64,000 nt of DNA from NCBI RefSeq assembly GCF_032062105.1, contig NW_026931375.1:372001-436000 (forward strand), read 5' to 3'. Shown piece after piece: positions 8,583 to 64,000 of this stretch; within the stretch, counting starts at the first letter, position 1; each line of letters opens with the position of its first letter. The translations under genes were made by a program, and so were the position numbers. This DNA is from Saccostrea cucullata (lineage: Eukaryota). Under the pieces are notes generated by a model. It did not search any database. It was not told where the DNA came from and worked only from the letters and a program-made list of their open reading frames with translations.

Positions 8583-8880
8583 GATTTTTCCTATATATTC
8601 CTATGTAAAACTTTGATCGGCCATTTTGGCCCCACCCTACCCCTGGGGGTCATGATTTGAACAAACTTGAATCTACACTACCTGAGGATGATTCCACATG
8701 AGTTTCATCTTTCCTGGCCAAGTGGTTCTGGAGAGGAAGATTTTTAAAGATTTTTCCTATATATTCCTATGTAAAACTTTGATCGGCCATTTTGGCCCCA
8801 ACCTACCCCTGGGGGTCATAATTTGAATAAACTTGAATCTACACTACCTGAAGATGATTCCACATGAGTTTCATCTTTCC

Positions 8881-8914
<34 letters not shown>

Positions 8915-9046
8915 GATTTTTCCTATATATTCCTATGTAAAACTTTGATCGGCCATTTTGGCCCCACCCTACCCCTGGGGGTCATGATTTGAACAAACTT
9001 GAATCTACACTACCTGAAGATGATTCCACATGAGTTTCATCTTTCC

Positions 9047-9080
<34 letters not shown>

Positions 9081-9212
9081 GATTTTTCCTATATATTCTT
9101 ATGTAAAACTTTGATCGGCCATTTTGGCCCCACCCTACCCCTGGGAGTTATGATTTGAACAAACTTGAATCTACACTACCTGAAGATGATTCCACATGAG
9201 TTTCATCTTTCC

Positions 9213-9246
<34 letters not shown>

Positions 9247-9297
9247 AAATGCCATTAATTTTTCTCTAATTCATAATTATCTCCCCTTGGAAAAGGG

Positions 9298-13575: not shown

Positions 13576-14579
13576 GATGATTTTCATCATTTTCTCCTCT
13601 TTGCATGCGGTTCAAGTAGCGAAATAGAAGTCAACATCACGAGCTTATTATTTATTTTACTGGAAATCATGGTAATATTAACTTAGAAAATGTTGATTCA
13701 TGATAATATTCTTTAGAATTGCACAAAAAAATTGTGTTTGACAGATCAGCTATCTGATGCTGAGGATTTGTAGTGATAAATGCCTTGACATTTAATTTGC
13801 TGACTACATTAAAAGGAAATGAACATTCTCTATTTATTGATATGTTTTAGGTTTATCTTCAAGTTGAAATTTGTAAATCAGAAAGCTCAGCTTAGAATAC
13901 CTCCCATAAACTTGCAATGTAGCAAAAATTGAAGAATCGCTCCGAAATGATTTTGAAGAATACAAAAGGATTTACTCTGAAAATAACTTCCAAATTAATC
14001 ATAACAAACCTTTCTGAGGTTGTGCATGCCTTTTACAAATAAAGACGAAAATGCTAGTAATTTTCTTAACTTTGTTTCTCGCTTCAAATTATAACATGCC
14101 ATGTTTAATTTGGAACTCTCTTGATTGTTCATAATAAATGCACTGAGTTCGAATTATCGCCCGTGTCTGTTTTGCAACATTGTGTCTAAATACTCGGAAT
14201 GAATACTATGGTTAAACTGTTGATTTTTCTATCAATGAAAAATTTCACCAATGACTGAAGTGAATGAACATGTTAACTTTCATCAGAGACATAAGAATGT
14301 TTAATCATCCAAATGATAATATCCTGCAGACTCTTTATCGATAAAATGAGTTCTTTGTATTTGCAGTGTACCAAACAAACACAGACCATAACTCTTACAT
14401 ATATGATATTTAAGCAAGTAAAATAAATTATGTTTGCATAAAATACCCGCTTTAGATGCCACAGGATAATCTGATACATTTAGTTTAATATTCCATGGTT
14501 ATTTTGCTTTTTGTAGAATTTAAAGACTCTTGATGGTTCCATTAAAGTGAATTTATACTAAAATTCAGCCATTTGGAAA

Positions 14580-17500
14580 ATGATTGAATCAAGAACATTT
14601 TTTGTATCTACTCAAACTCAAAATGCTTTCAAGGTCATGCATGAGTTACGACTTCGTAACTTATTGTGTGACGTCATACTCAGAGTCGATGGGAAGGATT
14701 TCACTGGTCATAAAGTAGTGTTGTGTGGGTGCAGTCCCTACCTCTGTGCTATGTTCACAAATGGAATGTTGGAATCAGAAAAAACACAAGTTGAAATACA
14801 GGGACTGGAGTCCTGGGCAATGGGGGAGTTAATTGAATTCATGTACACAAGTGTGATCGAGATAAATGTGGACAATGTACAAGGAATTCTGCAAGGAGCC
14901 AGTTTACTGGGGTTACACCAACTGAGGAAGATGTGTGCCACATTTCTACAGTCTCAGCTTACTGCCTCCAACTGCCTTGGTAAAGTCATCATAAATCTGT
15001 ATGCAGTGAAAATTTTCACAGCGCTTTTTTATAATCATTTTATTTCCATCCCTTTTGCTTTCCCTAAGTGGGGAAATTTAAAATGGGGCAAATTCAAGAA
15101 AAACAACATAATCCCTTATGCAAATCATTTTTAAAAGCAGGACAAAATTGGTTGCAAGTGTTAAAGGGCAAAAAATATGGGGCAAAAAAATCATGCATAC
15201 AGTAAAATTTACAGCAGCATTACCATTTAGTGTTATGGTGGTTTGGATTTGTATCATGACTTTCTTATTAATATTATCATGACAATGTGTTAATATGTAA
15301 TCTCTTTTTAACTGTAGGAATCCATGGACTAGCTGATATGTATATGTGTGGAGAACTAGAATCTGCTTCAAGACATTTCATCAATCAGAACTTCTTGGAG
15401 GTCATTCACTGTGAAGAATTCATGCAGTTATCATGTGACCGTCTTATTACTCTGCTCAAAAGTGACAACATTCGGGTGAACAATGAAAACCAAGTTATGG
15501 ATGCAGTTAACAACTGGATTCAATGGGATCCGGATAACAGACATTCTGAAACTTGTCGTCTACTCCAACACGTCAAGTTACCACTGTTAGGTATTTCTCA
15601 TTTAGAAAACGTAGTTGTGCAATTAGAATGTGTGAAAAATTGCCCCAAGTGCCAGTTGCTGATTAGCAAAGCTATAACGACCCTGCACGATGACACGTCC
15701 TTACAGCTGATCCGACCTCGTGCCATGCCCATCAGTATATATGTCCTCGGTGGCCGGAATAGTGCGGACTGTCAGTTACCCAGTACCGAGAGATACGATT
15801 TCCTTCTAGATCAGTGGACACATGTTGTAAGTAAAGTACCAAGTAGCCTCATGTTTGGGCAAGGAAATAAAAATGAGCTAAATGCCTATTCTCTTATATC
15901 TTTCTTTAGTTGTCCTTTTAATGAACTAAGGAATACTCAATTCAATGTCATTGTCGTTAATTTTTTTTATACAAACATACACCAATATTGCCATAAACTT
16001 ACTAAAGCATTCATTCCCTAAAAAATCTCTCTCCCTCTTCAGAAAAAAAATTGAACTGAAATTTTACATTTCTCCAGAGTGATATGAACATAGCTCGTAC
16101 AGCAGTAGGAGCATGCAGTATAGAGGGCATGCTGTATGCTGTGGGAGGGGAATGTGCCTTAGCTGACACTCAGGAGGACACGCTATACTTACGCTGCGTG
16201 GAGTGCTATGATCCGGTACTCAGACAGTGGGTTCCTAAACCCGACATGAAAATAGCCAGGTCATTTGTGGCAGTCGCAGCAGTTGGAAAGTACTTGTATG
16301 CAATTGGTAAGTTGCTAGATTTGAATGGTGAATGGTTATGGTATAGCTGAATACACAAGGTGTTCCTTGAATAGCTCTGAAGAAATCCTATTGTCCATTT
16401 CCTGGTACTTTAGATAGTAATAAAACTCTGAAAGCTGATAATAAATTAATTTTGTTTAGTAAACTTTCCGAGATTTTAGGGAGGAAATACAGGAAAAATT
16501 TTAAAATTTGTTTGTTTGATGTTACATTTTATCACTGTGTATTTAATTAAAAGTTTTTATTTTACATTCATGAATTAGTTTATCATTTATTTTATTTTTC
16601 AGGTGGAGAGGATCGTGCCACTAGTTATAGCATCATGGAAAAATATGACATTAATTCCGAAACCTGGTCATTTGGTCCGAATATGAAGAGAAAACGAGCC
16701 GGAGCAGGTGTGTGTGTTTGTGATGGCAGGATCTATGTAGCAGGTGAGTTATGATAGCTGAGTGTGTTCCAATCAAATATCAAGATAAAAAGAAATCCAC
16801 AATATTTATTATGAAAGGGAAAATGAAATAGAGATGTTTATTTATAACATACAAGAAAAAAACATACTCTCAGATGACAATAGACTATTTGGTCAGTCTG
16901 AAGTTTTTTGCATACAAGATCAGTGAAAAAGTATCAGTGGAGTATTAATGTCTTTGTCCTCTTTGATTGTTTATTTTAAGTGTATATGTTTATTCAGGAG
17001 GATATGACAAGACTCTTCACATGGATCGAGCCAGCGTGGAATGTTACGACCCCAATACTGATGACTGGACGTTTGTAACAGAGATGGAAAAAGCTAGATC
17101 TGGTCTCTCTGTGGTCGCCATTGACCACAACATCTACATGATAGGAGGGCGATACAAAACAGCTGATCAGTACTTTGATGTGGCAGAAAGGTACAAATAA
17201 ACTTCCTTTTTTTGATGGGCAATTTTTTACATTAAGAAAAGGTGTTTTCCCCACATTTTGGGCTTAAAATACAACAGATATTCTCAGTAATACATGTATC
17301 TTTAAAATGGCATATTTTATCATTCGAGTTTGAAAATCTTTAAGGTGATAATTTTTTGGGAGGGATTGAATGTGGTTTAACTTTTAAAATGTAACTTTTT
17401 TTCTTGCTAGGTATAACACCATCACTAACCAGTGGACCACTCTGTGGTCTATGAACCAGCCAAGAGCCTGGCCAGGAATTGCAGTGTATGATGGGAGAAT

Positions 17501-17633
17501 TTATCTGATTGGAGGATTTGATGGCTCCTACAGACTTCGCAGTGCTGAGGTGTATGACATTGATAGAGACAGGTGGTCATTTATCAGTAATATGCTGGTG
17601 GGGAGAGCAGGGTGTGGGGCAGCCATAGTGTGA
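14580..17633 (+). CDS. Kelch-like protein (BTB-BACK-6 Kelch repeats), 564 aa; putative CUL3 substrate adaptor
   Basis: Exons 14580-14979, 15318-15826, 16078-16306, 16603-16743, 16998-17190 and 17411-17633 (1695 nt, GT-AG, phases consistent). BTB motif LCDVILRVDGKDFTGHKVVLCGCSPYLCAMF; six GG...Y...W Kelch repeats. Orthologue not assignable by eye. Confidence 0.95.
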
Positions 17634-28400: not shown

Positions 28401-31400
28401 TTAAGTCACACAATCAACCAACAAAAAGTGTACATCCAAAAATGCAAAATTTATGCAATTTTGATTTTGATACTTTGGAATAGACCTATAAAACATCAAA
28501 CTTGTTCTTCATCACGAAAATGTAATTAAAATCCAGCATCTGAAGCAAGATTGAGAGTTTTCATCCCTTGATGCATCATTTGTGCAACTTTGGTTTATAT
28601 AAGCCTTCTGGTTTCTTCGTGATAGACCTGCACCCATAACTTTTACGAGGTCTATTATCTGGAAAATGTATGTCAAATTCAGCATCTGAAGCAAGTCCAT
28701 TAGTGTGCACCCTAAGATGTATCATTCATGCAAGTTTGTTCAACATAGAGCTCAAAGTTACTTGGAAATGAAACCTGTATAAAAAAAAACTAACCTTTTC
28801 ACTAATCCTGAAAATGTAGGTCCGATTCAGCTTCTGAAGCCAGCCTAGTAGAATGCACCCTTAGATGTACCATCCATGCAAGTTTGGTCATTATAGAGCT
28901 CAAAGTTACTTGGAAATGAATCCTGCACCATAAACTTTAACCTGTTTACTCGTCCAGAAAATGTAGGTCAGATTCAGCATCCGAAGCAAGTCTGGTAGTA
29001 TGCATCATAAGATGTACCATCCATGCAAGTTTAGTCATTATAGGGTTCATAGTACCTTGGAAATGAAACCTGCACCAAAAATTTTAACCTGTTCACTCAA
29101 CCGGAAAATGTAGGTCAGATTCAGCATCCAAAGCAAGTCTTGTTATATGCATCCTAAGTTTGGTCATTATATGTCTCATAGTAACTTGGAAATGAAACCT
29201 GCACCAAAAACTTTAACCTGTTCACTCAACTGGAAAATGTAGGTCAGATTCAGCATCCGAAGCAAGACTGGTAGTATGCATCCTAAGATGTACCATCCAT
29301 GCAAGTTTGGTCATTATATGTCTCATAGTAACTTGGAAATGAAACCTGCAACAAAAACTTTAACCTGTTCAGGCTGGTAGTATCTTCAAAATGAAACCTG
29401 CACCAAAAACTTTAACCTGTTCACTCAACTGGAAAATGTAGGTCAGATTCAGCATCCAAAGCAAGTCTGGTAGTATGCATCCTAAGATGATGTACCATCC
29501 ATGCAAGTTTGGTCAACATAGGGCTTATAGTTACTCAGAAATGAGACCTACACCAAAAACTGCACCAAAAATGTTAACCTGCTCCATAAACATTAACCTG
29601 GTCATTCCTTTGCTGAAATTGCAGCACCTGAAACTTTGACTGGTACAATGAAACACACTAGAAACATCTTCCATGCATGTCTAATCAATATAGGACATAG
29701 AAGTACTTAAAAAGAAAACTGCTCCAAAAAACTTAACCTTAACCCGGGACGCCGATGCCGACACCGACGCCGAGGGTATTACATAAGCTCCCCCCAACTC
29801 GTTGAGGTGAGCTAAAAATGAATTGAAAACCTTAAAGTTTGTGCATCTTTCTGATTTTTTATTTTAGAATATTAGTATTAATAAATGTTATTTTGTTCTG
29901 GTTTTCAAGAAACTGTGATAATACTGACTAAAACTTCAGATTATGTAATTAAAGATTTGTTTTAAGGCACAAAGCATGTTTTAGTAATAGTTCCAGCTTT
30001 AACTTTCACCCAGAATCTTTGTAATACATGTACCATTATGCTTTCTAAATGTGACTTACTGGTACTTTAGGAGATATTTCCAGGTTGACCAATTCTTTCC
30101 ATGTCATTCCTTCATGATCTCTTGGAAAAGTTTTGGTGCCTCCAATTTCACTATAAATTAAAAGAATTCATGAAATATCAAATAATCATTTCCTATGTTA
30201 CTGGTAATCTAAACATGTATAGCTTTAAATTTTTGGTATCCTACATTCAGAAATCCTTCATGACACGTACAGTACTGTAGATTCCTAAATATATACGCGT
30301 GGAATTAATTATTGTGTAATTTCGCAAGACGCACCAATCGCAAAATAAAATTACTCGCCTTTATTTTTATGGTTGTGAAATTTATGTAAAAGCTCTTGAT
30401 CAAACGTCCATTCACGAATTATCATTCTCGTGTTTTGATGTTGGAGAGCAAATTTGCGATAAAAAGTACTCGCAAAATATAAGGAATCAATCTACAGTTT
30501 ACAATTTGAATTTTTTTTAAAAATCAATTAGATAAGGACTTACTTTAACTTCCAGCTAGATGTGATTGGAGACATCGTGATAGAGTTATCTCCCCCTGTT
30601 CTGGCATGTAGAGCCATTGCCTCTAAAATCCAATGCAAAGCACAAAGTTGCCGGAAAAATGCATCTCTAAAACATCAAATAAATGCTTAAAATAAGTAAA
30701 TTTTAATGGATGGACCAAGCTTTATGACAGTTTTTTTTTGTTGCTATATGTAAATTTAGATATCTCCAAACCTGAATACTAGTAGAAATACATGAACATA
30801 AATATTTCAGCTTACAAAACACAAAAATTAAGGCCATTTTCTTAAAAATCAATTGGAATATATATATTTACTTTGCTATGTTTTCTTTGGTTTCTATGAT
30901 GTTAGTGTGTTGGGGGGTATAAGGACGAGGGGCCTTGATTTTTTTCCTTCTCCCTGGGGATCTGGGGGTGGTAGTCAGGGAACGGGAAATTCCCAGCTCA
31001 GTTTCTTCATCCTCCTCCCTATGACTAAAATAAATAAAGGTATTAATAGATTTATACTTATTTAGAAAGAATTCTGCTTAATATAAGACTATCTTTGTTC
31101 AATACTTTAATTTATGTATTCAGTCACGAGTGATTATTAAATACTTAACTTGGATATTGATCTTTCAGATTAAACAATTATAAATTTAAAATCATACATG
31201 TATTAAAATATCTTATTTTTTCAGATGACTAAGAAAAACTGGTTCATGTATATCTGAATATATCTACATGCACATTTATTTCCATTCCATTAACTATGAT
31301 GATACACTGTACATGTAAATTATAAGAGAGAGTTATATATCAATTTAAAAAAAAAATACAAGTAATGGAAAACAATTTAGTGCTATAGCAAGCAAGAGAA

Positions 31401-34400: not shown

Positions 34401-37131
34401 ATTTTGATATAATCATTTATATTGCAACATGATGAAAAATAAGAGATACGGAGTTAAACCATTATAGTAAGTATTAATACCGTCTGATAACTTAATTTCA
34501 AGATTAGAATCTTGTATTTAATTCTTATGGTTATGACTATATTGAACATGAGATTAATTCTAGCATGCAAATAAATAATGCATTTAAAAACTAAATGAAT
34601 GTTTTTAAATACACTGTAGACTGTTTACTGACTTTCCCGTATGCATGCAAAAGTTAAAAATGTTCATGCTTTAATTAATGCTTGCCTATAGCTAGGATAT
34701 TCTTATTGTTAGGATTGGCCGATGTTTTATTATCCACTTAGCAAACATAACGAAACTGAATCAAGATTAAAGGTAAAATGCATTTTTCATTCTTTATTTA
34801 ATTTTATTAAGGAGATTATTATTAAACAGTTTAATGACAAGTGGATTTGTTGAAATTTTTAAAAAGCTTTGACTTAAACCAATTGAACCTGGTGTTGCAT
34901 TTATTAAATATCTGTATTATTTGCTGGTATTAACAATTGCAGTCGATGTACAGTTCATAAAGGACTTTTTCCATGCTTATCATTTTTCATAAGTTAGAAT
35001 GAGATTTTCAAAATAAGCTAATTTAAGGTTAATAACTAACAAATTATTTCACATATAATACCTTCACAGGATTAAATTGCATCTGTCCACTCAAATAATA
35101 ATAAACATTGAAAATCACATCAATTTATCATGACTTAAATATAAATCTTCATAAAATAGTGTATCATCCAGATAGAATTACATGTAACAAAATATTGATT
35201 GACATCCTCATCTACAATATTTGAGCACTGTATATTACAATATGAGAGAACATGCCATGTACTAAATTTTAGTACTATAAGAGTTTGATATCATGCATGT
35301 ACAGCTTACTTTTAATTCAAGATATATCATATCTATAAATGGTAGTTTCTTTAATTTAAAATTTTCCTAAAGTCAATTGCAGTCTTTATAATGATACTTC
35401 TATACTTGTTCAGGATTTCTTTTCTCCTTATTTTATATTTGATTTGAGGTACATGTATTTCCAATCATTACTTCAAATAAAATGAAAAAAAATGTGTCAA
35501 TATTTTCTGAATGCATTCACTTATTTAACCTAGTTATTTTAATTTTAATTTTCTTTTCTTTTTTTTCCCATCATCAAAATGGCAATATTTCATGTGCTTC
35601 ATAAACAGCATCATACATGTCATTGGAATTGCACTTGACTGTCTTCTAGTCAACATGCACAAGCATTTTAAAGACTAGACTCTTCCCTTTCAACAGAATA
35701 CTACAATAAATGTTTCTACTGCATTGTGCACATAAAAAAATAATTTCTCTGCAAGTTAAAAAAGGTGCATACATTACTCTCTTGCTGAGTAGACAAAACA
35801 AGCTAAAAAAGATACACTTATAAGTAATGCCTCATAATTTTTTTTATAGCCCCTATACTTGGTACTTGTCAATGGCAGTACCGATAAAAAGAACAAACAG
35901 TTTAAAGTGTTCCCTTCCCCTTTCACTTTAGATTTATTGACACAATTTCAAAACAGAGACTAAAACTCTATAGGGAGAAACCTTATTTGTCAAACTTAAA
36001 CACTAGCCATTGAGATTTATTCTGCACAATACTCTATCAATCTTTCAATTTTACAAGCTTTTGAAGTAATAAACAAGATAAAACGGCCAAATTTAAATAG
36101 CCCAGCAAACCTAATGAAAGTGTGTTATCTTGATCAATTGACAGAAAAATAAGCTTTGACAGCTCTTGTGAGCAAAATAAAAAGCCTATTGATATATAAG
36201 TATCAAATATTTGAGAAAAGAAATGAAATTTATTTTAGCTCATGGATTTTACCATATTTTAAAATGAGTGAAAATGAGAAAGAAAATCATATTGATTGAT
36301 TTAAAAAAAATCTAATACAAATACAGTTTTTCTTCATATCATTGATTTGCCAAATCTGCAGAATCATGTATAAATTTTTCAGGATGCTTTTTAATCTACA
36401 CACAAATCAATTTCCAGTTCTCTTTAACTCCTCAACAGAACATGAATCTCATCTGATATTAACAAAAGATAATTACAATCTATACTTGATATCAATTTAG
36501 AATAGGGACAGCAAATATCATAATTGTCCTTAAAAAATCAATAACAAATTAAGCCAGCTGTCATTCACTTATGGTCTTAAAGCATTTTTTTATTAAGTAA
36601 TTTGACTGCAATTGTCTTTAAAAAATCAATACACATGTAGAAGTATTTCTATCAACTATCTTCAACATATGTATTAAATAAAAACAGATTTCAGCAAGTA
36701 ACTGAGTTAACATTTTGATTCTCAATCTGAGCACTGATGAAAAAAATTACAAGTACGAAACTTAAAGATGTGCATGTTTTTGAATAAGTCATTGCAGGAG
36801 TACCAGAGTTAAAAAAACTAATACATGGATTCAATAAACATAAACTTACACTATCCCACTGTCCCAGAGCATGAAGAATCATCCTCTGCTCATCCAAATA
36901 GAACGGGTCCCCCAGTCCTTTGTATGGCACATTTGGAGCAGCAAAGTAGCCCTGGGATGTAAGCTGAGACTGGCGCCGTCTGTATTTTTCCTCCCTGGCA
37001 TCTTTTGGAGAGGGAACCTGTGTTTTGTAAGTTGCCAAGCTCCTTGCTGCTATCTTAGCAGTTTTATCATAAGGAACAGGAACTGGCTTTGGTTGGATTC
37101 TCCAAGGATTGCTTCTACTTGCTGCTGGCAT
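22433..37131 (-). CDS. CCDC60: Coiled-coil domain-containing protein 60-like, 824 aa with both microexons included
   Basis: 19 exons: 36850-37131, 34031-34111, 33650-33726, 33347-33416, 32737-32864, 31489-31587, 30872-31024, 30544-30666, 30060-30150, 28071-28290, 27762-27873, 27572-27629, 27357-27457, 27109-27249, 26589-26759, 26199-26289, 24635-24661, 24527-24559, 22433-22849 (2475 nt, open frame). Motifs recalled from CCDC60: MIRNVKLGHGLFDLIKSE, FRQLCALHWILEAM, LREWEICSPDICAAIEFCREKI. Confidence 0.85.
23268..23455. mobile_element. Tc1/mariner-type MITE (TA TSD)
   Basis: TA|cagtgga...tccactg|TA, with internal tatccgga repeats. Confidence 0.75.
28359..29818 (+). mobile_element. Second Helentron-type non-autonomous family with a 147-bp tandem array
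   Basis: Perfect 15-bp subterminal inverted repeat agctcacctcaacga (28363-28377) / tcgttgaggtgagct (29799-29813). GCCGAC microsatellite ~29748-29773; terminal A tract. Confidence 0.8.
28650..29585 (+). repeat. ~147-bp tandem repeat, ~6 units
   Basis: The motif gaaaatgta recurs at 28662, 28810, 28957, 29104, 29233 and 29432 (spacing 148, 147, 147, then units with an internal deletion and a duplication). Confidence 0.88.
30275..30497. mobile_element. Tc1/mariner-type MITE
   Basis: TA|ctgtagattcct ... aggaatcaatctacag; imperfect TIRs. Confidence 0.55.
31974..32148. mobile_element. Tc1/mariner-type MITE (TA TSD)
   Basis: TA|cagcaaaactcg ... cgagttttactg|TA, with internal acggttataacga repeats. 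Confidence 0.75.
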
Positions 37132-38439
37132 TTTTTTTTACTTTTATTTCAGATTTCTAAAAAGGAGGAGATTTATCAGTTTGTGTTTCATACCAGTGAG
37201 CTAAAAGGGGATTAAGTATCAAGGTTAAAAACAAAGAAACAAACTTTGCTTCAGCATTTAACATTGTACAAAAAAATCAACAGAAATACAATATTAATTT
37301 AATATTCAAATAACAAATCACTGTAAATAATTCTGCAATAGTGCAGTACTTTTTTGGTAAATTAAAAAAAATCTCTTATTCTTATCCATTTTCATAGGGT
37401 CTTTTATATATCTATCTGTCCTATCTGTATATGCAAAGGCTTAAGCTACTGTATATGAGCGATAATTAGAAAAAAAAATACCTTAATCTAAAATATTAAA
37501 TCACTTTCAAACAAATCCATCACACAAACCATATATGGCAGGAAATTGGTACTGCGTTTTTAGGTGATACTTTTGTACCCTAGGGTACACCTCTATTTAT
37601 CCTTTACCAATAAGGTTACAATTAGGGTACAGTATAAAACCATTGGAAAATGAAAGTAGAAAATTTCTGAAGGACTGTCAATGTAGCCGGGTTACAATGG
37701 GTACAGTGGTTACTTATTATTAACATGATTAACAGTAATAAACCTTTTCAACTTTTATCCTAAAACTATTTGGGTTTTGAATTTAAACAGGGTACAGAGG
37801 GAACTATGCCTACAAAATCACAACAATTGACATTTTCATAACTTAAAATGTTTAATTCATATTAGCATGATCATGACCTATGGCTTCAAAGGTCTACATA
37901 CAAAAAAAAAAACACTCATGTAAGTATTTAAGAGGGTAAAAGTCAGCTTCTTACCTTTAATTATGATATAATAGTCCAGATTTTTGAAGTTAATTAGCTA
38001 GACACTGATAATTATATTCCAGACTTGAGCATTGCATGACACACCTGATACTGTATACCTATCGCAAATGATTTACCTGTACCCACAAACTCTACTAACA
38101 GTACCTGATGGTGTGTACTATACACACTGATCAAATCATTGTGATCATGCTGGATTGTGTGATCATTTACTTCCATTTCAGGCCAGACTAATTTAAATTA
38201 CCCTATACACTGTATTTATCTTATCCAATTCAATTTTGATTAGTAAATTAAAGTTATATAGTAATTTCTAAACAACGTTATTCTAAACTTTATTAATATT
38301 TTTGTAAATAGTACTAGTACTTTGAACAGATCATTTAATACGTTTTTGAACAAAAGTATATAGGTCCCTGCTATCATGGGCTGGTAGATTTGAGATTTTT
38401 ACCAGCACAGAGATTTTTTTTTATTTAAGCCCCTCCCAT

Positions 38440-39110
38440 CACCATGAATATAATATGTCACTTGTTCTGATAAAAATCTGCATTGCAAAACTCAGATGCT
38501 TTAAAATTTGTATTAAGAATTTTTATCCAATTAATTATATTATTTCCAAAACTAACATAGTTCAATACTTTATAAATAAAAGACCATGAGCAATGAAATT
38601 GAATCAAAAGGTTTTTCAAAATCGATTTAAAGTAATTAAAACCAACAATCCTGGTGTATTTTTAGCTTCTGTGTATGTCATTAAATCATAAATAAATCTG
38701 GTGTTTTCACCAAGATATCTTCCTTTTAGGAATTCAGTTTGAGTGTCTGAAATCAAAAGATTCAGAGTATATTTTATTCTGTAATTCAGTAGAGTTATGG
38801 TCTCCAATTTTTCAAAAATTGTCTTGGTTTATTCCCATTAGGTATGCATGAAATTATCCCTAGTCTTCGTGAAATAGAAATTTCTTTTTTTTTTTGACAA
38901 TATACAATTTATAGCTCGCATAATGTACATAGACTTTCAGATCACTCCAGAAAAATTAAAGAGGTGATTTTATCTAATTTTGGAATTTCAGTTAAGTTAA
39001 TAATTTCTTCTAAATCAATATCAATCAGTTCATAATCTGTATTAGAATAAAAATCTTGATAAAACTTTTTGACTTGGTTCAAAATTTCTGATTGATCATA
39101 TAGAAGGTGA
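38440..39110 (-). mobile_element. Degenerate L1/Tx1-clade LINE RT fragment
   Basis: ORF 38616-38807 (ITLLN...ISDTQTEFLKGRYLGENTRFIYDLMTY...PGLLVLI) resembles L1/Tx1 RT subdomains 1-3. It is followed by broken FDSI...SFIYKVL...FG sequence. Confidence 0.75.
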
Positions 39111-41087
39111 CATTTTTTTTATTTCTTGGTTTACGGATCCGCCGACCTGATTTTTTTTAAGTCTCATGAATTGATTGAGTACTTTGGATTAGAGGAAATT
39201 ATTTTTCTTTTCTTTTTTTTTTTAAAAATTAAACTAAATTCTAGATCAGGTTTGGCATAGGACATTTATATGTTCTTTCAATGTAGCTCTTAAATATAGC
39301 AGTATATACACGTACCCCTGTAATACGTCATGTGTATATAAATCTGTGAAAATTTTGATAATCTAAATTTAAGGCTCATAAGGTACGTAAACATTGGGTT
39401 TGGGAAATGTTTTGCAGTTGAATTAAGTTGCAAAAAAATCAAGTCCAGTGAAATTTTTAGGTGGGAGCTAGTTTAAATGCATGTAAACGGAGAAAGAAAT
39501 AGAGAAAATAACAGACTTTTAAAAGTTTTTTTTTCAATGGATGGTACTGTAGCTCTAGGTTTTCCATCCCAATTTTTCTGATCAGAGCTGCAGTCTTGCA
39601 GCTATATGTAACGAGCAGGTGAACTTAGGTGTTAGTTTTTATATATAGCATGCATTTTATTCTTCTACATAGGTATCATAAAAAGAAGAGAATAATTATT
39701 AAGTAGAAAATAGAAGGAAAGAAGAGAATTAAATTAATTTTCACCCAAATTGCAAAAAAAAACAAAACAAACAAACAAAAACAAAAAAAAAAACAAAAAA
39801 CAAAAAACATTTCTTTCAAACATAGATGTTTAATAAATTAAAACTAATAATGAATTTTGTGCAACAAATTAATTATGTGATGTACTGTAGTTGACGGATT
39901 TAGAATGGTCCTGATTGGGATTTTTAAAATTTTGATTATACACATGTATATGCATATATATGTATATACATATAGTATGTACAAAATTCATGATCTGCAT
40001 TTAAAAAATCTAGTAAGCAATATATTATAGAAAATATATTAATTATGGAATAAAAGATATTGAAAACTTGATACATTTTAGAATGCGTACAGTTACAGGT
40101 ACATATATGCAGCAGCATGTGCAAAACTTTTGACATTGGTGTAAACAATTTTCAATTAATGCAATTTTTAAGGTTACAATTGCAAGTATTTTGAATTTAA
40201 AAGCATATGCCTCTGGCCTCTGATTTGTTAATCATTTTTACAGAAATAAAGTGAATAAGTGTGCAAATTTAAGTTTAAAAACATTAATTAGAAAGAATCT
40301 ATCTCATAGTAAAAAGTTTAAATCCCCCCCCCCCCCCCTCAAGTAGAAATTGAAACTCTATATTAATGTTTGTTTCATCTAAAAGATGACTTAGTCTTAG
40401 ATCATGATTATATCATGCGATCATAATAAATTACTGCTTAATTTTTTGGTAATGAACACAAAGAAATTTTGACAATAAATATTACATTTAAAAAGAAAAA
40501 ATTAAAGTTAACAAATAAGATTACTTTTATAAATAAAGTTCATCTACTTTTTGGGGATTACTTTAGGATATGAGCTAATTTTATATTTACAGCAAATAAT
40601 GTATAGAGGCAGTTGTGCAAATAGGAAAATTAATGAAATATGTTGTGGAGGGGTGGGGGTCAACTGAAATGCTGTTGTATGTGTACTGTATAAATTAGAT
40701 CTATGGAATCTGAGGAAGATCAGGTGATAATCCACCTGGTATACACGTACCTATGAAGTCACATGTTTATTGTTCTCCTGGCCAGGTGTCACACTGTAAA
40801 ACCTTCCAATTCGCATAGAATATACAAGAAATATACAGTTCTTTTGTCATGTTCAGGAAAGGTGTGAAAAGTAGAACGGGTCTTTTAATTTGCAATGAGG
40901 TAAACTTGTTTGGAGGAGCTAGGGTTCACAATTATTTTGAACCAGATTTTGGTCTACATTGCATGTACATATTTTTCACCATTTCCCCCCTTGGAATAAA
41001 GGTTTTGAATAACAAATTTTAAAAAAATATTGATTCATTTGTTAAATTTAAAAAGTATGTGACCCCCTTCCTTACTACAGCATGTAA

Positions 41088-41201
41088 CACAGGCACTTGA
41101 TGTTTTAAACCTTTCTTTTGCATAAATAAAAAATCCACTATGTATTATACAAAGTAATTTTTTATGAAAATGAAGAAAGTTTAAAACATCAAGCACCTAT
41201 G
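41088..41201. mobile_element. 114-bp MITE with CACAGGCAC terminus and 8-bp TSD (P-element-like)
   Basis: GCATGTAA|cacaggcacttgatgttttaaac ... gtttaaaacatcaagcacctatg|GCATGTAA. Confidence 0.75.
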
Positions 41202-41291
41202 GCATGTAAATAACATTTTTTTACAATCAAGTTTTACAAAAAAAAATATATACATATAAAATGGTGTGGCATTCTTCCTTAAGCCAGAACA

Positions 41292-41325
<34 letters not shown>

Positions 41326-41764
41326 AAGAGCAAGCGTTGTTCATGTGATACGCATATCAGTATTGTACATATTTGTCCATCAATAATGACAGTTTACAAA
41401 CATAAGAATTAAATTTAAGCTATTAACACCAAAAAAAAAAGTGAAAAAATTCCCTATTTTTTTAAGACTATGAAACCTAAATTAAATTTTGGGGGGATTT
41501 GATGGGTTTATTAATTTTGTTAGAACTTTATACAATATTATAGATATTTATATCAGTGACTCCATGTCTCCTTCTCCATTTTTTTTCTTTGCGACAGGAA
41601 ACAAGAACTTATAAATATAGCCAAACAAAACAGAGAGAAAGAGAGGAAAATTATTTTTTTTAGTAAGATATTCTGTGAATCAACCTCAGATAAGATTATG
41701 TTTTAGAAAATGTTTTAGCCAGGTTTCAAAATACTGAGAAAGAAATGAATAAAAACTGCTAAAA

Positions 41765-42070
41765 AACTAGAGGTACTATGAGCAATGAGCTCACTAAATG
41801 ATATACCCCCCCCCCCCCCACCCATATGAATAAAATGGCTGTGTCCATGTTTTCCTCTGGAAAATCCAAAATATATGTCAGATCAAAAAGTAAAATAAGA
41901 GGTGCACAATGGCAATATGTAATAAAGATCCTGTGAAAGTTTCATTAAATTTCCTTCAGTGGTAATTGAGAGGAGTTGCGGATAAGAGATGGGTACGTAC
42001 CCCAAAGCGTAACAGACGGACGGAAATACGGATTTCTATATACCCTCCCGCTTTTCAAGCGGGGGTATAA
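41765..42070 (+). mobile_element. Short Helentron-type element
   Basis: aactagag start; GACG/GGAC microsatellite ~42013-42025; 3' hairpin tataccctcccgc-ttttcaa-gcgggggtata. Confidence 0.6.
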
Positions 42071-43483
42071 TAAACATAATCCCCATATTGGATTGGTGCA
42101 AACCTAAATTTACAAGCCCCACTGTATTTTTCTACTATAATTGTTCAGGCACTGTGTGCATGCTTTTGAAATCATGATGAAAATGCCAGGGGCCCATTTC
42201 ACAAAGCCTACTTAGGACTATCTCTTAGGAAGGAACTTTTTCCTAAGTTCATTACTTATATGTTTCACTAACCTGTTTCTTATCTTAGGATATTCCTAAG
42301 TTATGTCGTAACTTTAGGAAAGGTAAATCAATGACTTAGGATGAAACTAAATATTGTGACTGCATATCCAAAATTTCTTATGGAGAGAGAGAATGTGTTT
42401 GGGGAGAGAAAATTCAATGAACTACTAGTATATGGATGATTGATTTTTCTCCAGGTCAAACTGCTTTACTTTGCACGGAAATACTAGGATTTCAATAATT
42501 GGCAAACAATTGTGTCAAAATTAGTCCAAAGTATATAAAAATAACAGTTCACAAAACTGGAGTTGGCGAAATAGATGTACACATACTGGAATAATTCCCC
42601 ATCATTTGAAGAGCACGCCTTTGTTAACAAAAAATAGCATATGATATGATCCAATTGTTAAACATGCATGCATACATAATGTTTTTATCTACATGTACAT
42701 GTATATTTATTTATATATTACTAGTATTTTAATGGATATTAAAGGTACTTGGACACAGATTTGCATGAAGTCAATATTTTCGCTATAATATCACGACTTA
42801 CATATTTTAATTAATTGCATTTCACACAAAAATTAATTAAAAATCTTATTTCATTTAAAAGTTATTAAAACTTCAAATATTTTGGCGGGTTTGTTTGACA
42901 CATCCTTGCACTTGCACACTCATGTTATGTACACAGTTTTTGTGAACAGGGCACGAGTTCTATTATTATTGATGTTTACAATTCACCGGGTGCATTCAAT
43001 GGTTACAGATTGCTTACCACAACTGCACGGACTGACAATATATTGTGTGTTTGTTTTGCTTTCGAACATTCCGAGTTTTCTGGATTAAAGTATTAATATT
43101 TTTCATTTTTACACAATGAGATTAATTGCCACTTTTCCTAAGGATTAAGAATAGAATTAATTTGTTAAAGAGCAAGGATGTGTCAACTTGCTCCTTCCAA
43201 AAGTGATTAATTTCCTGGCCCCTTGGACAGAGGTACTTGGGAGGGGGGGTTAACATAGTCTGAAATAATCTAATGCTTTGAAATCTGCACATGATGAAAT
43301 AATTTTTTTTTTAAATTCCAAAATTTTGAAAGATGTGGCCCCAGGGTCAGTGGTTCCTGTGGGATGGGGAGCTCAACTGTGGACCCGCCCTAACACAAGA
43401 AGCCCTGACCCAGGGGCCCTGAAATTCACTAAAAGTCGAAATACATTTTCTCTTTGTTACTCTGATCTACCTCTGGGTATTAA

Positions 43484-44153
43484 GGTAGTCCGATCCTCAG
43501 GTTTATAAAATTAGCAGTTAAGTAATCAAAAATACTCATAAGAGTATCTCTGAATCCACAAAGTTATGTAAATTTATCCACAGTATTTCTTTTACGTTAA
43601 TGATTAAAGTTAATCATATTATATAGGGAAAATTTTCAAATCTCCAATATTTTTGCAGAAAAAACGAATTGGAATATATGCAATGCTTTTTCTAATTGCA
43701 TATTGATCAACAAATATATTTTAGGTTAAAAAATGATAGGTATCCAGGCATTCGGAGAAATTGTCATGATTTTTATACTTATTTAGTAATTTTTTGTCTT
43801 CTATTTCCGTCACGTATTCTATAATACATAGTGTAAAAGGCTTTTGTTATCATTGAAAGACATCACAAATCACTTCTCATTTCATATCATGCTAATAAGC
43901 ATTGATATCTATGGCTGGATTCAAGAAAATCTTATTTCTCTAAAACTGTATTAATTTTTTCTCCTTTTATAGGGTACAAATGTCAACTTTTATAGGACCT
44001 TTTCTAAAACTTCCAAAGAGCTTGAATCTTATAAAGATAAATAAAATGAAAATTGTTGCATGAAAAAATTTAATTTGTAAGCTTCATTTTGATGCAATTC
44101 AGTTTAAATATTAATTTTTGGAGTTATCCTTCCTGGCTGAGGATCGGATATCC
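43484..44153. mobile_element. MITE with TTAA TSD (Kolobok-like)
   Basis: TTAA|ggtagtccgatcctcag ... ctgaggatcggatatcc|TTAA. Confidence 0.75.
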
Positions 44154-45509
44154 TTAAGTAACCAAAATAAGCATGCCGAGTGTATAATTATGATAAGCAA
44201 TGGTGCCTCTTTCAAAATTGTGAATTTCATGGCCTCTAGATTAAAACATGAATCAAATTCAATTGTTGGAAAGTTGTTGCATGAGAGCTTACTAAGGCGA
44301 AATGGGAATGCTAGATTTTACAGTTAAGGCGAGATGGGAACAAACCCTCAGGTGACCTACATATCATTTATGTATAAGGCCCATAATAAATAAGTCAATT
44401 TTTCAATTTTCATGATCTTCCTGTATTGCAGTGTTGACAATGAACATGATGAAAGAGTTTACTAGGTTCATTTGAATGATTTTCACTAATCCTTTATAGT
44501 TTATATTTTGTGACATCACTGCATGTGTTAGTGAAAGTTTTATTTTAACTAAATTCTTTCTCAGATTGTGCAAACTTAGCTACTAGATTAAATTACAATT
44601 GAATATTGTACATTATCATTAAAATCTTAATTAAAAACTAAGCACGGATTGTAACTGATAAAGTTAATCTTTAACAGAAAGTAAATGGACATATTCATGT
44701 AAGATTTTTAACTTTTAAAATTCTAAAACTAAGCATTAATGTAAAGCAATGTGAGGTTAGTTTGGTTTCAGTCACCATTTTGGCATCCACAGTTACATCT
44801 GCGGATTTTCTAAAGGCCATGACCTAGATCTAAACAAATGCACAGATCCCGTGATGCATTATATGGTATATGGCATGGCTTTTTTGACACTGGTTTCCAA
44901 AATCATATTCACATTCCTGCCGGTGGCCGTAGACGTAGTGGTAATTGGAGATAATCTGTAGTGTGAGCCATGCCCCAAGATATGGGTCCATATCGGCCTA
45001 GTAGACCATAAAGTATCAGTCACATTATCCAGCGATGGGGTATACTATGGGCAACCGATGCGTTTTTTGATAAAAATGGTGTGGTTGCCAGCCGGACTTA
45101 CAAAAGCCCAGCGTTGAATTGCTAATCTTAAAATGTTTTAGGGTAACCGGTCAATGTACAAATGTATATTACATTGCTCATACATTGGTTAGTCTGTCGT
45201 CTATGGGCCAATGTTTGTTTGAACATGGACCAATGATCGGCTGATGTCTGTTGCCCACCACTCAACCCCCAACGACATCAGATTCAACGGACAGTTGATC
45301 GGCCATCCATCAGCCAATCTTTGCATTTAAGATGTGTTAATGATGGATTGCTGAAGAGGAGATATGTGGGGCATTGGTGGAGACATTGCTGATTTTTAAC
45401 TACAACTTACCAGTATTTTCCACCAATGACCCCCCATCGATTCACCAAATGACATGGGTTTCTCATTGATAGTACATTTGTATACCCCATCACTGGATAA
45501 TGTGACCAA

Positions 45510-45871
45510 TAGGGCTGGGCAATAATATCGATATTTCAATATACATGTATTGCGATACAATAACAAAAAATATCATATCGCTGTACGATTTTGTAATATT
45601 GATATATTAGCAATATGCTTAGATTCAGGAATTTTGTCATTAAATAAAAAAATGGACTTATGGAAGTTTGTTATTAAGCCAAACAGTAAGACAGAAGTTG
45701 TTTTGTGGGAACATTCCAGAGCTTATCATAGTTATATGTACATTCTGCATGTAAATTAAAGTAAATATGATAAGAAAATTCTATATAAATTACATTGAAA
45801 ATATTGCAATACATATCGCAATACAGTAAAAAATATCGCAATATGAAATCAGGGGCCAATACACAGCCCTA
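45510..45871. mobile_element. hAT-type MITE with perfect 8-bp TSD
   Basis: GTGACCAA|tagggctg ... cagcccta|GTGACCAA; internal ATATCG/CGATA motifs. Confidence 0.85.
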
Positions 45872-46007
45872 GTGACCAATATTAAAAGTACACTATTTTT
45901 GTTAACTAAACCCAATGCCATCTGAGTTGCTGGTATAAAGACGAATAATGACTTTCAAAGAATAATGATCGGGAGTCAATTTTCAAATGTTCAAAAATTC
46001 CAATCTC

Positions 46008-48058
46008 CTAAAACCTTGTATCCATTATTTTTAATTTTAACTTAGAAAATTTCAGCCTTCTAAACCCTTGTATCCATATCTTATAGTTTTGTAACCTGCT
46101 GTACCCATGTGTACCCTTTGTACCCACTGTACCCTGAGCATCGGCTCCATAATTTTTAATTTTAACTTAGAAAATTTCAGTCTCCTGAACCATTGTATCC
46201 ATTTCTTATAGTGTTGTAACCTGCTGTACCCATGTTTACCCTTTGTACCCACTGTATCCTGAGCATCCGCTTCATTATTTTTAATTTTAACTTAGAAATT
46301 TTCAGTCTCCTGAACCCTTGTATCCATTTCTTATAGTGTTGTAACCTGCTGTACCCATGTGTACCCTTTGTACCCACTGTACCCTGAGCATCGGCTCCAT
46401 TATTTTTAATTTTAACTTAGAAAATTTCAGCCTTCTAAACCCTTGTATCCATTTCTTATAGTGTTGTAACCTGCTGTACCCATGTGTACCCTTTGTACCC
46501 ACTGTACCCTGAGCATCAGCTCCATTATTTTTAATTTTAACTTAGAAATTTTCAGCCTTCTAAACCCTTGTATCCATTTCTTATAGTGTTGTAACCTGCT
46601 GTACCCATGTGTACCCTTTGTACCCACTGTACCCTGAGCATCAGCTCCATTATTTTTAATTTTGACTTAGAAAATTTCATCCTTAAAATCTAAACCCTTG
46701 TATCCATTTCTTATAGTGTTGTAACCTGCGGTACCCATGTGTACCCTTTGTACCCACTGTATCCTGAGCATCAGCTCCATTATTTTTAATTTTAACTTAG
46801 AAATTTTCAGTCTCCTGAACCCTTGTATCCATTTCTTATAGTGTTGTAACCTGCTGTACCCATGTGTACCCTTTGTACCCACTGTACCCTGAGCATCGGC
46901 TCCATTATTTTTAATTTTAACTTAGAAAATTTCAGCCTTCTAAACCCTTGTATCCATTTCTTATAGTGTTGTAACCTGCTGTACCCATGTGTACCCTTTG
47001 TACCCACTGTACCCTGAGCATCAGCTCCATTATTTTTAATTTTAACTTAGAAATTTTCAGTCTCCTGAACCCTTGTATCCATTTCTTATAGTGTTGTAAC
47101 CTGCTGTACCCATGTGTACCCTTTGTACCCACTGTACCCTGAGCATCGGCTCCATTATTTTTAATTTTAACTTAGAAAATTTCAGCCTTCTAAACCCTTG
47201 TATCCATTTCTTATAGTGTTGTAACCTGCTGTACCCATGTGTACCCTTTGTACCCACTGTACCCTGAGCATCAGCTCCATTATTTTTAATTTTAACTTTA
47301 GTTAGAAATTTTCAGCCTTCTAAACCCTTGTATCCATTTCTTATAGTGTTGTAACCTGCTGTACCCATGTGTACCCTTTGTACCCACTGTACCCTGAGCA
47401 TCAGCTCCATTATTTTTAATTTTGACTTAGAAAATTTCATCCTTAAAATCTAAACCCTTGTATCCATTTCTTATAGTGTTGTAACCTGCGGTACCCATGT
47501 GTACCCTTTGTACCCACTGTATCCTGAGCATCAGCTCCATTATTTTTAATTTTAACTTAGAAATTTTCAGTCTCCTGAACCCTTGTATCCATTTCTTATA
47601 GTGTTGTAACCTGCTGTACCCATGTGTACCCTTTGTACCCACTGTACCCTGAGCATCGGCTCCATTATTTTTAATTTTAACTTAGAAAATTTCAGCCTTC
47701 TAAACCCTTGTATCCATTTCTTATAGTGTTGTAACCTGCTGTACCCATGTGTACCCTTTGTACCCACTGTACCCTGAGCATCAGCTCCATTATTTTTAAT
47801 TTTAACTTAGAAATTTTCAGCCTTCTAAACCCTTGTATCCATTTCTTATAGTGTTGTAACCTGCTGTACCCATGTGTACCCTTTGTACCCACTGTACCCT
47901 GAGCATCAGCTCCATTATTTTTAATTTTGACTTAGAAATTTTCAGTCTCCTGAACCCTTGTATCCATTTCTTATAGTGTTGTAAACTGCTGTACCCATGT
48001 GTACCCTTTGTACCCACTGTACCCTGAGCATCGGCTACATTATTTTTAATTTTACTTA
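46008..48058. repeat. 125-bp tandem array (~16 units) with a 760-bp higher-order duplication
   Basis: Near-identical units, each with four TGTACCC motifs spaced 9-10 bp. The ORF track recurs every 125 bp. A variant unit (catccttaaaatctaaaccc...cctgcggtacc) appears at ~46677 and ~47437. Confidence 0.97.
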
Positions 48059-48384
48059 TATAGATGTTACACTGTCTTCCTACCACTGGGAAGCATCTAC
48101 TTTCGTTTTCAGTAGGAATAAATAGTGTACCCTTTTTGTAACCTTTTCTCCATACATTTAATAAGGGTGTACCCTAGGGTACAAAAGTATCACCTAAAAA
48201 CGCAGTACCAATTTCTTGCCATATCTAACACAAACTGCAGTAAATGTCCACCTTGGTGTCATCTCTATATTCTGTTTACCGTGCCACTATTCATTAGCAA
48301 AGCAACCGCCTTCTCAGATGTCTACCAATGCATTCCAATTCTTTAAACACAACAGGATTGGATATCAGCATTGTTTAACAATAC

Positions 48385-48465
48385 CTTCCACGATTATCTT
48401 CTCATCGGTTCAAAACCGGAACGTAAATAATGACGTCGCATGGATACGATGCTATACCGGAAATG
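48385..48465. promoter_or_regulatory. Putative bidirectional promoter (CCDC60-like / MS4A-like) with RFX X-box, CRE and ETS motifs
   Basis: Minus-strand donor GAAG|gtattg at 48384; CCGGAA at 48416 and 48457; TGACGTCG at 48431; X-box-like GTCGCATGGATAC at 48435-48447. Plus-strand candidate 5'-UTR donors (gtaagt) at ~49007 and ~49205. Confidence 0.55.
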
Positions 48466-49598
48466 CAGAATGATTTAGATGATTTCTGTTTTATTTCCCA
48501 TTGCAAAACATTGAAATGTTAACAATTGTATAAAAACAGTCAGCTTCGCTTACTACATAAAATTTTGACTTTAACAATATTAATTATTTTAAAATTTTTA
48601 ATAAATAATTTGCCGGAGAGCATTATCTTGACCGGTTTTAACATTTAGATAATTTTAGATAAGTTGTACCTGATCTTTTTTTCGCAATGTATAACACTGG
48701 ATCCTGCTGTTAAAAAAATAAATGATGTATTTTAAATATAATTCCATTTATAAAAACGCTATGAAAGTAATATTATTTTCTAAAAAAAAAAATACAAAGT
48801 TTGTTTATTGTATTTTTGTATGGCACGAGTTGTCTAATTCCGAACGACCCTTTCTTTCACATGACATTTTGTAGTTCATCAACTTTCAACTTTCAAGCTT
48901 TTAATTTGAAATCGAGCTCACATGACACAGAGAGTATAGTCTGCTTAGCGTCGAGTTGTAATTGTTAAAAAACCATAAAGGTCAAGTGCATCATCATGAA
49001 ACTACAGTAAGTAAGTAATTATTTTTTGTACTGTTTACAAAATTTAATGGATATCTATCTCAGTATCTGTCTATATACAGAGCTGAGCTGTCTTAATTCC
49101 TTACATGTGGGTTTAGACATACATGTCTAAACCTTGGGTTCTGAGAAAGGAAGAAGCATTTAAAAATCAGAATAAGGGTGGAGAATCATTTTGAAGAAAA
49201 ATCAGTAAGTAAGGCCTCTACTATAATATAATATGATGTGAACTATATATATAATAATATATGATGTGACTTATCTCAGCAAGATGTCGAAGGAACTAAA
49301 AATTTGGTCTGGTGTCCCTCAACATCTCAGCCCAGTTTCACATAAAGTGATTGGGTTTTTTTTCCCGGACTTTGACCACGTGTTTCAATCAATACAAGCT
49401 GAAAATTAATTAGCTGCCTGCTTCAACTTTTTCCTATGGACATCCTTTTAAATCTTCATCACTATAAAACTTAAGTTTCTTATCTTTAATAAAAGGTTTA
49501 AACCCAACAAAGTATAAAGTTTCATAGAAATATCCCATTCGTCTAAACCTATGATGCTGAAGAGTTCCAGAAATAGTCTGCTTCAAATACCTCATTCT

Positions 49599-63499: not shown

Positions 63500-64000
63500 A
63501 GTAAAAATGCTTTGAATTAAAATGTATAATGCGTGAATTTCTACATTGCAAATCATTTACTTTTTTGAGAAATAAATGTACACAAGAGATTATAGGTCAC
63601 CTGGGCATCATGCAACAGCTTTCCAACAATTGAATTTGGTTCGTGTTTTAAACCCAAGTCATGACATTCACAATCTGAAAGACGCACCATTGCTCATCAT
63701 AACTATAAACTTAGCATGTATACTAGTAGTTTGGTTACTTAGTATACATAGACAGAATAGGAGAACAAAAAAAAATGCATTTCAACTAATCAGTAATATT
63801 AAGCAATAATCAGTAGTGTCCCCACCCCACAAAAACCCCTGACCCTAGGTCCACACATTTCACATGTATTTTGGAAAATGTACCATTGATCATCATAAAT
63901 GGTTGATTAATATAATGGAGCAGATTTCAAAGAATTAATTCATTTTCAGTATTAATTGGATCCAACCCTCCCCCCCCCCTCGTCCTCAACCAGAACACCT

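What the first reader, a model, noticed from the sequence alone, without database searches (positions are those of the whole stretch)
37533..48224. 10.7-kb TIR-bounded giant element apparently inserted in the 5'-UTR intron of the CCDC60-like gene
Seen: a 59-bp near-perfect inverted repeat (atatggcaRgaaattggtactgcgtttttaggtgatacttttgtaccctagggtacacc) at 37533 and 48224, extending imperfectly to ~130 bp, with ATAT at both junctions. Between them: no host coding exon found and no transposase, but a Tx1/L1 fragment, Kolobok-, hAT-, P- and Helentron-type insertions and a 2-kb array built from the TIR's own motif. Removing the segment leaves a ~0.5-kb intron between the candidate first exon (donor 48384) and the ATG exon (acceptor ~37157), a typical size for this gene. 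Inference: one large non-autonomous DNA transposon of unclear superfamily that acts as a sink or carrier for other elements. The TSD could be AT, TA or ATAT; the GGTACA-rich ends recall animal EnSpm/CACTA-type elements.
Basis: partly seen in the sequence, partly recalled or inferred. Interest (0 to 1): 0.75.

Follow-up and report, generated by a model that had tools for sequence, protein, structure and literature searches.

The report
Large hAT-like transposon in oyster gene
A 10.7-kb stretch at the front end of an oyster CCDC60-like gene is bounded by 62-base inverted repeats and an exact 8-base duplication, and is most likely a hAT-type jumping element without its own transposase, from a low-copy family: a familiar kind of element, unusual mainly for its length and a satellite-like array at one end.

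Summary
An exact 8-bp direct repeat (ACACAAAC; 37522-37529, 48228-48235) flanks a 10,698-bp unit, 37530-48227 (chance 4-8e-4). The ATAT "TSD" is a palindrome inside the TIR. The ends (CATATATGGCA / TAGATATGGCA) resemble bivalve hAT termini (2 mismatches in 11) and Ac, not CACTA. Public contigs from related oysters show the left half of the interior at 7-11 times single-copy depth, joined to the TIR, with the L1/Tx1 fragment and one nested repeat inside. So that half is a mobile family's body, not host intron. No transposase was found (weak test). The 16-copy array is likely an amplified subterminal GGGTACA module. The empty site, the right half's linkage and the helper were not seen. RNA contigs carry 238-253 nt before the ATG exon, which fits insertion inside exon 1 as well as in the intron. 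Verdict: a new, large Ds2-like member of a known kind; interest modest.

The parts
37522..37529 (.). Left copy of 8-bp target-site duplication ACACAAAC
   Evidence: Longest abutting direct repeat among 21x21 boundary pairs, symmetric about the TIR; chance 7.6e-4 (random window pairs) and 3.9e-4 (shuffled flank)
48228..48235 (.). Right copy of the 8-bp TSD
37530..48227 (.). Whole element, 10,698 bp
37530..37591 (+). Left TIR, 62 bp, starts CATATATGGCAGG
   Evidence: 59/62 to the right TIR; mismatches at positions 1, 3, 12
48166..48227 (-). Right TIR, starts TAGATATGGCAAG
37592..37900 (+). Imperfect TIR extension (to about 37661, mirrored at 48096-48165) and left subterminal region with inward-facing GGGTACA/GGTTACA; one degenerate homologue of the array unit
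   Evidence: GGGTACA at 54, 96, 170, 261 nt from the left end; unit aligns at score 38, 0 of 500 shuffles
37662..41763 (.). AT-rich (28% GC) multi-copy family body of unknown origin
   Evidence: Per-contig depth 7-11 times single-copy contigs in 2 of 2 DNA runs; contigs 2.2-4.5% different from the window
38466..39118 (-). Decayed internal fragment of an L1/Tx1-type ORF2 (residues about 400-660), carried in the family body
   Evidence: 50 RT homologues, best E 7.5e-18; tblastn extent; contigs cross both ends
39729..40182 (.). 454-bp segment absent from relatives' family copies
   Evidence: Joint 39728>40183 in 4 of 4 runs
40241..40391 (.). 151-bp segment absent from relatives' family copies
   Evidence: Joint 40240>40392 in 4 of 4 runs
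41764..42072 (+). Very high-copy nested repeat with a terminal hairpin (Helentron-like; label recalled), likely present in relatives' copies too
   Evidence: 267 and 204 loose ends at 41764; contigs X7 record 29 and X5 record 21 run from the body into it; right end approximate
42740..44349 (.). Cluster of high-copy nested repeats, including a TTAA-flanked 670-bp Kolobok-like element at 43484-44153
   Evidence: Depth table; joint 43479>44154 in 22 contigs (X2) and 18 contigs (X4); ends; outer bounds approximate
45014..45881 (.). Inverted-repeat element (32-nt arms, superfamily not settled) with a 362-bp hAT-type element (45510-45871, TSD GTGACCAA) inserted in its right arm
46021..48058 (-). 16 x 125-130-bp tandem array, likely an amplified right subterminal module; holds most of the 60 GGGTACA motifs of the right end
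   Evidence: 5 such motifs in the 53 kb outside the element
36850..37156 (-). ATG exon of the host CCDC60-like gene
   Evidence: RNA contigs lie on exactly 36850-37156; homologue named CCDC60-like, PF15769
37482..37529 (-). Possible 3' part of exon 1 (donor at 37481), if the element interrupts exon 1
   Evidence: Donor scan; length fit to RNA contigs; inferred
48236..48440 (-).
   Evidence: exon structure not shown

Best explanation
The segment 37530-48227 has 62-bp inverted ends and an exact 8-bp flanking duplication, and is most likely one copy of a low-copy, non-autonomous hAT-type cut-and-paste transposon that a transposase encoded elsewhere would have inserted here. Shown: TIRs, the 8-bp duplication, inward-facing GGGTACA motifs at both ends, and a left half that is multi-copy in relatives and includes an L1/Tx1 fragment. 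Inferred: a hAT transposase supplied in trans binds the TIRs and, through its BED domains, the GGGTACA subterminal repeats. It excises the unit and inserts it across an 8-bp staggered cut. The founder lost or never had coding sequence, holds filler DNA (Ds2-like) and moved at about 5 kb or more with passengers inside. Unequal exchange or slippage then expanded one 125-bp subterminal module into 16 copies at the right end. The copy sits in the 5' untranslated part of the CCDC60-like gene, in intron 1 or inside exon 1 (about even odds).
For: 8-bp symmetric direct repeat, chance 4-8e-4. With the shared core fixed, both ends carry Y-A-K at positions 1-3, chance 0.007 (pattern chosen after seeing the library). 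Bivalve hAT consensus starts: 5 of the 39 I saw read TAGGGATGGCAAC (two of them offset by one base) and 2 of 39 read CATACATG (PMC10294476 supplement file 24). Ac TIR is C/TAGGGATGAAA, with an 8-bp TSD, subterminal hexamers and Ds2 filler (PMC3260210 passages). Hermes has imperfect TIRs and asymmetric BED-bound subterminal repeats (PMC10368747 passages). Body contigs at depth 1031-1555 against 128-153 single-copy (X2) and 34-53 against 4.9 (X4). X5 record 18 begins at 37562, exactly 30 nt before the two arms diverge, as a k=31 graph branch between both arms would place it (inferred). X4 record 9, at single-copy depth, has 380 bases beyond 37257 where a filled site would allow about 302, a weak hint of an empty site.
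Against: No empty site and no second copy's flanks were displayed (one search hides most rows). The two ends differ at positions 1 and 3. Repbase's rule for non-autonomous elements (1 mismatch in the first 11 nt; PMC4455052) is missed by one against the nearest hAT starts seen. The TSD fits nTnnnnAn only at position 7. No transposase or helper was found. Depth is a rough copy measure, and the runs are relatives (best share of words 0.21).
Confidence: 0.76

Rival explanations
1. Same single element, but it starts at GGC (37537-48220) with a 4-bp ATAT TSD (Sola1-like) or a 2-bp AT/TA TSD (ISL2EU, Tc1/mariner, animal EnSpm). The 8-bp repeat is an older host duplication.
For: ATAT, AT and TA duplications exist at inner boundaries. 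AWWT targets are called a hallmark of Sola1, and a Sola1 MITE TIR starts GG (PMC3845634 passages). The TIR has fewer mismatches on this reading.
Against: ATAT is a palindrome, so a TIR that contains it yields the 'duplication' for free. The reading leaves a symmetric 8-bp repeat (p 4-8e-4) and hAT-like outer bases to chance. 0 of 8 bivalve Sola1 starts resemble the inner end; 2 of 2 CMC consensuses start CAC.
Confidence: 0.08
2. Boundaries and 8-bp TSD are right, but the mobiliser is a P-superfamily or another 8-bp-TSD transposase, not hAT.
For: The left end starts CAT; P elements have CA..TG ends and 7-8-bp TSDs (recalled). The Repbase 11-nt rule is not strictly met for hAT among the starts seen.
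Against: The right end reads TAG, which fits the C/T variation of Ac and not CA..TG. Positions 6-12 match bivalve hAT-Ac starts. No P termini were available to compare.
Confidence: 0.08
3. The ends are hAT-type, but the 10.7-kb unit is a one-off composite: the family is shorter, and the right half or the array was added only in this copy.
For: Contig linkage is shown only for 37562 to about 41840; two segments are private to this copy. The array has a near-identical 760-bp higher-order duplication, a sign of recent local growth.
Against: Positions 44645 and 44876, between the high-copy inserts, are covered at low multi-copy depth in 4 of 4 runs. One TSD encloses the whole unit. This rival changes the size history, not the mechanism.
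Confidence: 0.05
4. Two independent short insertions in opposite orientation flank ordinary host intron DNA.
For: No contig spans the unit.
Against: The interior is 7-11-fold multi-copy and contiguous with the left TIR. No partner end exists in the window. One 8-bp TSD brackets both ends.
Confidence: 0.03

Closest known systems
Maize Ds2 / Ds-like elements (hAT; PMC3260210, passages read)
   Same: 8-bp TSD, C/T variation at the first TIR base, short subterminal repeats, interior of unrelated filler, about a dozen copies.
   Different: TIR 62 bp against 11; 10.7 kb (core about 5.3 kb) against about 1 kb and up; one-sided 16-copy array; no helper identified.
Bivalve hAT-Ac and hAT-Blackjack consensuses (PMC10294476 supplement file 24, first ~400 nt of each held)
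   Same: Terminal pattern YA(G/T)RN.TG, with TAGGGATGGCAAC and CATACATGCC the nearest, followed by clusters of short motifs.
   Different: Those are autonomous. The nearest differ at 2 of the first 11 nt. None of the held starts contains this TIR's internal words (0 hits).
Multicopy Pack-TIRs such as Pack-hAT-N8_XT (PMC8277862, passages read)
   Same: A non-autonomous TIR element that moved repeatedly with foreign DNA inside.
   Different: Pack-TIR cargo is host sequence with a known parent, median 224 bp. Here the identified cargo is TE-derived and the parent of about 4 kb of filler is unknown.
Tandem-repeat-bearing elements: oyster Helentrons (PMC8268682, passages read) and Tetris foldback (PMC4079207, search listing only)
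   Same: A short satellite-like array grown inside a mobile element.
   Different: Here the array sits in the subterminal zone of a TIR and 8-bp-TSD element, at one end, and is made of the putative transposase-binding module.
EnSpm/CACTA
   Same: Repeated subterminal motifs; large size.
   Different: No CAC..GTG termini at any tested boundary; TSD 8 bp against 2-5 bp for the CMCT group (PMC12730594 passages).

Membership tests
hAT (non-autonomous) | 8-bp target-site duplication | tested here: met
   Exact, symmetric, chance 4-8e-4; one copy only, empty site not seen
hAT (non-autonomous) | TIRs beginning (C/T)A with a hAT-like first 8 nt | tested here: met
   Both ends fit YA(G/T)RN[ACG]TG drawn from bivalve hAT starts; T at position 5 was seen only in 3 oyster hATw starts
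hAT (non-autonomous) | Repbase rule: at most 1 mismatch over positions 1-11 to a classified element with the same TSD length | tested here: inconclusive
   2 mismatches to the nearest of the 39 of 133 bivalve hAT starts displayed; Repbase itself not available (rule)
hAT (non-autonomous) | Clusters of short subterminal repeats at both ends | tested here: met
   GGGTACA 4 times in the left 300 nt, 60 times at the right end, 5 times in 53 kb outside; binding not tested
hAT (non-autonomous) | Target preference nTnnnnAn (Ac/Hermes type) | tested here: inconclusive
   Position 7 fits, position 2 does not; a preference cannot be judged from one site
hAT (non-autonomous) | Autonomous partner with these ends encoding a BED + DDE + dimerisation transposase | not testable with these tools
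   No genome held; TIR scans found 0 in viral and metagenome contigs
EnSpm/CACTA (CMCT) | 5'-CA..TG-3' (CAC..GTG) termini with a 2-5-bp TSD | tested here: not met
   No boundary gives CAC ends with a TSD (definition)
Sola1 | 4-bp AWWT TSD | tested here: inconclusive
   ATAT present at 37537/48220 but explained by a palindrome inside the TIR
Sola1 | Terminal similarity to Sola1 TIRs | tested here: not met
   0 of 8 bivalve Sola1 starts resemble the end, judged by eye
P superfamily | CA..TG at both ends with a 7-8-bp TSD (recalled) | tested here: not met
   TSD length fits; left end CAT, right end TAG
CryptonS | TATGG terminal direct repeats, no TIR | tested here: not met
   TATGG here is inverted and inside a 62-bp TIR (definition: PMC3212892 passages)
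Pack-TIR | Interior derived from an identifiable non-TE host locus | not testable with these tools
   No genome to find a parent locus; only TE-derived pieces identified

The most novel reading that the evidence does not exclude
A family of roughly 10-kb non-autonomous hAT elements moves whole, ferrying L1 and Helentron pieces, because one subterminal transposase-binding module has been amplified into a 60-motif satellite that compensates for the size penalty or titrates the transposase. This copy sits inside exon 1 of CCDC60 and is spliced out through a newly used upstream donor, giving an allele with a remodelled 5' UTR.
Probability: 0.15. Interest if true: 0.58.

Novelty: new member of a known kind. 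Interest (0 to 1): 0.32.

Why it matters
It turns an 'unclear superfamily' into a testable hAT-type element with exact ends and a predicted empty site. It is a long, multi-copy, filler-carrying TIR element in an animal, where such multi-copy carriers were rare in a 100-genome survey (only four multicopy cases, 1.4%; PMC8277862 passages). It also shows a satellite-like array arising from a putative transposase-binding module. If the insertion lies in exon 1, it is a 10.7-kb structural variant at a gene's transcription start with a measurable effect on splicing or expression.

Tried and rejected
Own genome: none held. TIR pattern scans: 0 hits in viral contigs and metagenome contigs; these collections are not expected to hold oyster DNA, so this says nothing about copy number. 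Earlier findings of the scan: nothing in 4 look-ups. Pfam: 153 of the 209 stop-to-stop frames of 26 aa or more in 37533-46060 were scanned. The 56 left out lie in high-copy inserts, and the array was not scanned. No transposase family appeared, but the known RT pieces also scored nothing, so this is a weak negative. Rfam: 0 matches in 37000-49000. Transcription of the element: body contigs occur in the two RNA-type runs, but summed background from about 10 copies could give this, so it is not counted. CryptonS, EnSpm, MULE (no 9-10-bp TSD at any boundary), Sola1, ISL2EU and Tc1 readings were weighed and ranked lower. Depth bins could not decide whether 37482-37529 is exonic. Literature: 10 searches showed no description of this family. 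The original Sola paper is not held. The five-oyster satellitome supplement (PMC11136912) could not be read and might list the 125-bp unit. Only the first ~400 nt of each consensus in the bivalve library are held, files 25-33 of that supplement were not searched, and Repbase/Dfam were unavailable, so the family may already be catalogued there.
Full report
Context. The window is oyster DNA: the ATG exon is 94% identical to a Magallana UniRef protein. A longer homologue is named CCDC60-like and carries PF15769, and its exons map on the minus strand from 37131 down to about 22550. No genome is held, so outside evidence comes from one laying of public contigs from related oysters and from papers.

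Observation. The arms at 37533 and 48224 match 58/59 and continue to 129 bp at 80.6%. The TIR 20-mer occurs twice in the window against 0.03 expected. The array (16.2 x 125 bp), the L1/Tx1-type RT fragment (38466-39118), a TTAA-flanked 670-bp insert and a nested 362-bp element with its own 8-bp TSD are there. The P and Helentron labels rest on recall only.

True ends. Random position pairs gave such a symmetric repeat with frequency 7.6e-4 and shuffled flanks 3.9e-4; allowing any of 420 offsets gave 1.5e-2. The unit is then 37530-48227 (10,698 bp) with a 59/62 TIR. ATAT is palindromic and lies inside that TIR, so it appears as a direct repeat for free. The cost of this reading is two mismatches in the outer three bases.

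Superfamily. The ends read CATATATGGCA and TAGATATGGCA. In a curated bivalve library (PMC10294476, supplement file 24, only the starts held) I saw 39 of 133 hAT starts. Five read TAGGGATGGCAAC and two read CATACATG, each nearest form 2 mismatches away over 11 nt. Ac has C/TAGGGATGAAA, an 8-bp TSD and subterminal hexamers, and Ds2 elements hold filler (PMC3260210 passages). Hermes has imperfect TIRs and asymmetric BED-bound subterminal repeats (PMC10368747 passages). Repbase asks for at most 1 mismatch in 11 (PMC4455052 passages), which is missed by one on this partial comparison. I therefore call it hAT-like: it most likely works like a non-autonomous hAT, and formal membership is open. CACTA ends are absent. 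None of 8 bivalve Sola1 starts resembles the inner end.

The interior is a family body. Laying four runs on 36000-46000 gave single-copy contigs on the host flank at depth 128-153 (X2) and 4.9 (X4). Contigs on 37647-40979 had depth 1031-1555 and 34-53, which is 7-11-fold. The tool warns that summed depth is no copy number; I use per-contig values as a rough lower bound. One contig runs from inside the TIR to 38533 and starts exactly 30 nt before the arms diverge. Others cross both ends of the RT fragment and run from the body into the high-copy repeat at 41764, so these passengers are likely shared by the family. Two segments (454 and 151 bp) are skipped in 4 of 4 runs. One single-copy contig is longer than a filled site would allow (380 against about 302 bases), a weak hint of an empty site. 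Body contigs differ from the window by 2.2-4.5% and host flank contigs by 5.1-5.4%; this does not date the insertion against the species split.

Array. GGGTACA faces inward at 54 and 96 nt from both ends, at 170 and 261 on the left, and 60 times in all on the right, against 5 in 53 kb outside. The 125-bp unit aligns with the left subterminal region beyond all 500 shuffles, but not clearly with the TIRs. It is best read as one subterminal module amplified at the right end; that the motif binds transposase is inferred by analogy. Setting aside high-copy inserts (about 2.8 kb), the array (2.0 kb) and private segments (0.6 kb) leaves about 5.3 kb.

Coding capacity. No transposase family was hit in 153 of 209 short frames, a weak negative because the known RT pieces also scored nothing. 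No Rfam match.

Position in the gene. RNA contigs confirm the exon 36850-37156 and carry 238 and 253 nt before it (letters not shown, orientation inferred). An exon spanning the insertion site, with a donor at 37481, would start at 48425-48440, at the CpG peak and GC step. Extra 5' exons are also possible. I leave intron against exon 1 at about even odds.

Verdict. A real, large, low-copy non-autonomous TIR transposon, most likely hAT-type (0.76), carrying TE debris and a subterminal array. Ten literature searches showed no description of the family, but Repbase, Dfam and one oyster satellitome supplement could not be seen. New member of a known kind; interest 0.32.

Noticed in passing
window 46021-48058: The array has higher-order structure: monomers 5-10 and 11-16 (760 bp, each led by the same 130-bp variant) are about 98% alike, so a recent block duplication or an assembly artefact.
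   Followed up: partly
window 8005-9250 and 11850-12611: 166-bp tandem array (5.7 copies, 97%) with a diverged relative nearby; resembles the oyster Cg170/HindIII repeat (name recalled).
   Followed up: no
window 28487-29561: 147/129-bp tandem array in a CCDC60 intron.
   Followed up: no
window 59107-62095 (-): Near-complete LINE with endonuclease and RT in three frames (RTE-like by look).
   Followed up: no
window 9702-10650: 178-aa highly charged ORF (-) beside nested short inverted and direct repeats at 10263-10650; unexplained.
   Followed up: no
window 14562-17633 (+) and 3735-3947 (+): Exons of a BTB-Kelch (KLHL-type) gene and an RRM exon like SF3B14; names by look of the translations.
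   Followed up: no
window 41088-41201: Small inverted repeat (26-nt arms, 62-nt spacer) inside the family body.
   Followed up: no
window 44155-44284 and 63608-63741: 82% inverted match, a second copy of one nested repeat in the window.
   Followed up: no
window about 39305 and about 40742: The 12-mer TATACACGTACC occurs twice in the family body, 1.4 kb apart (seen by eye).
   Followed up: no
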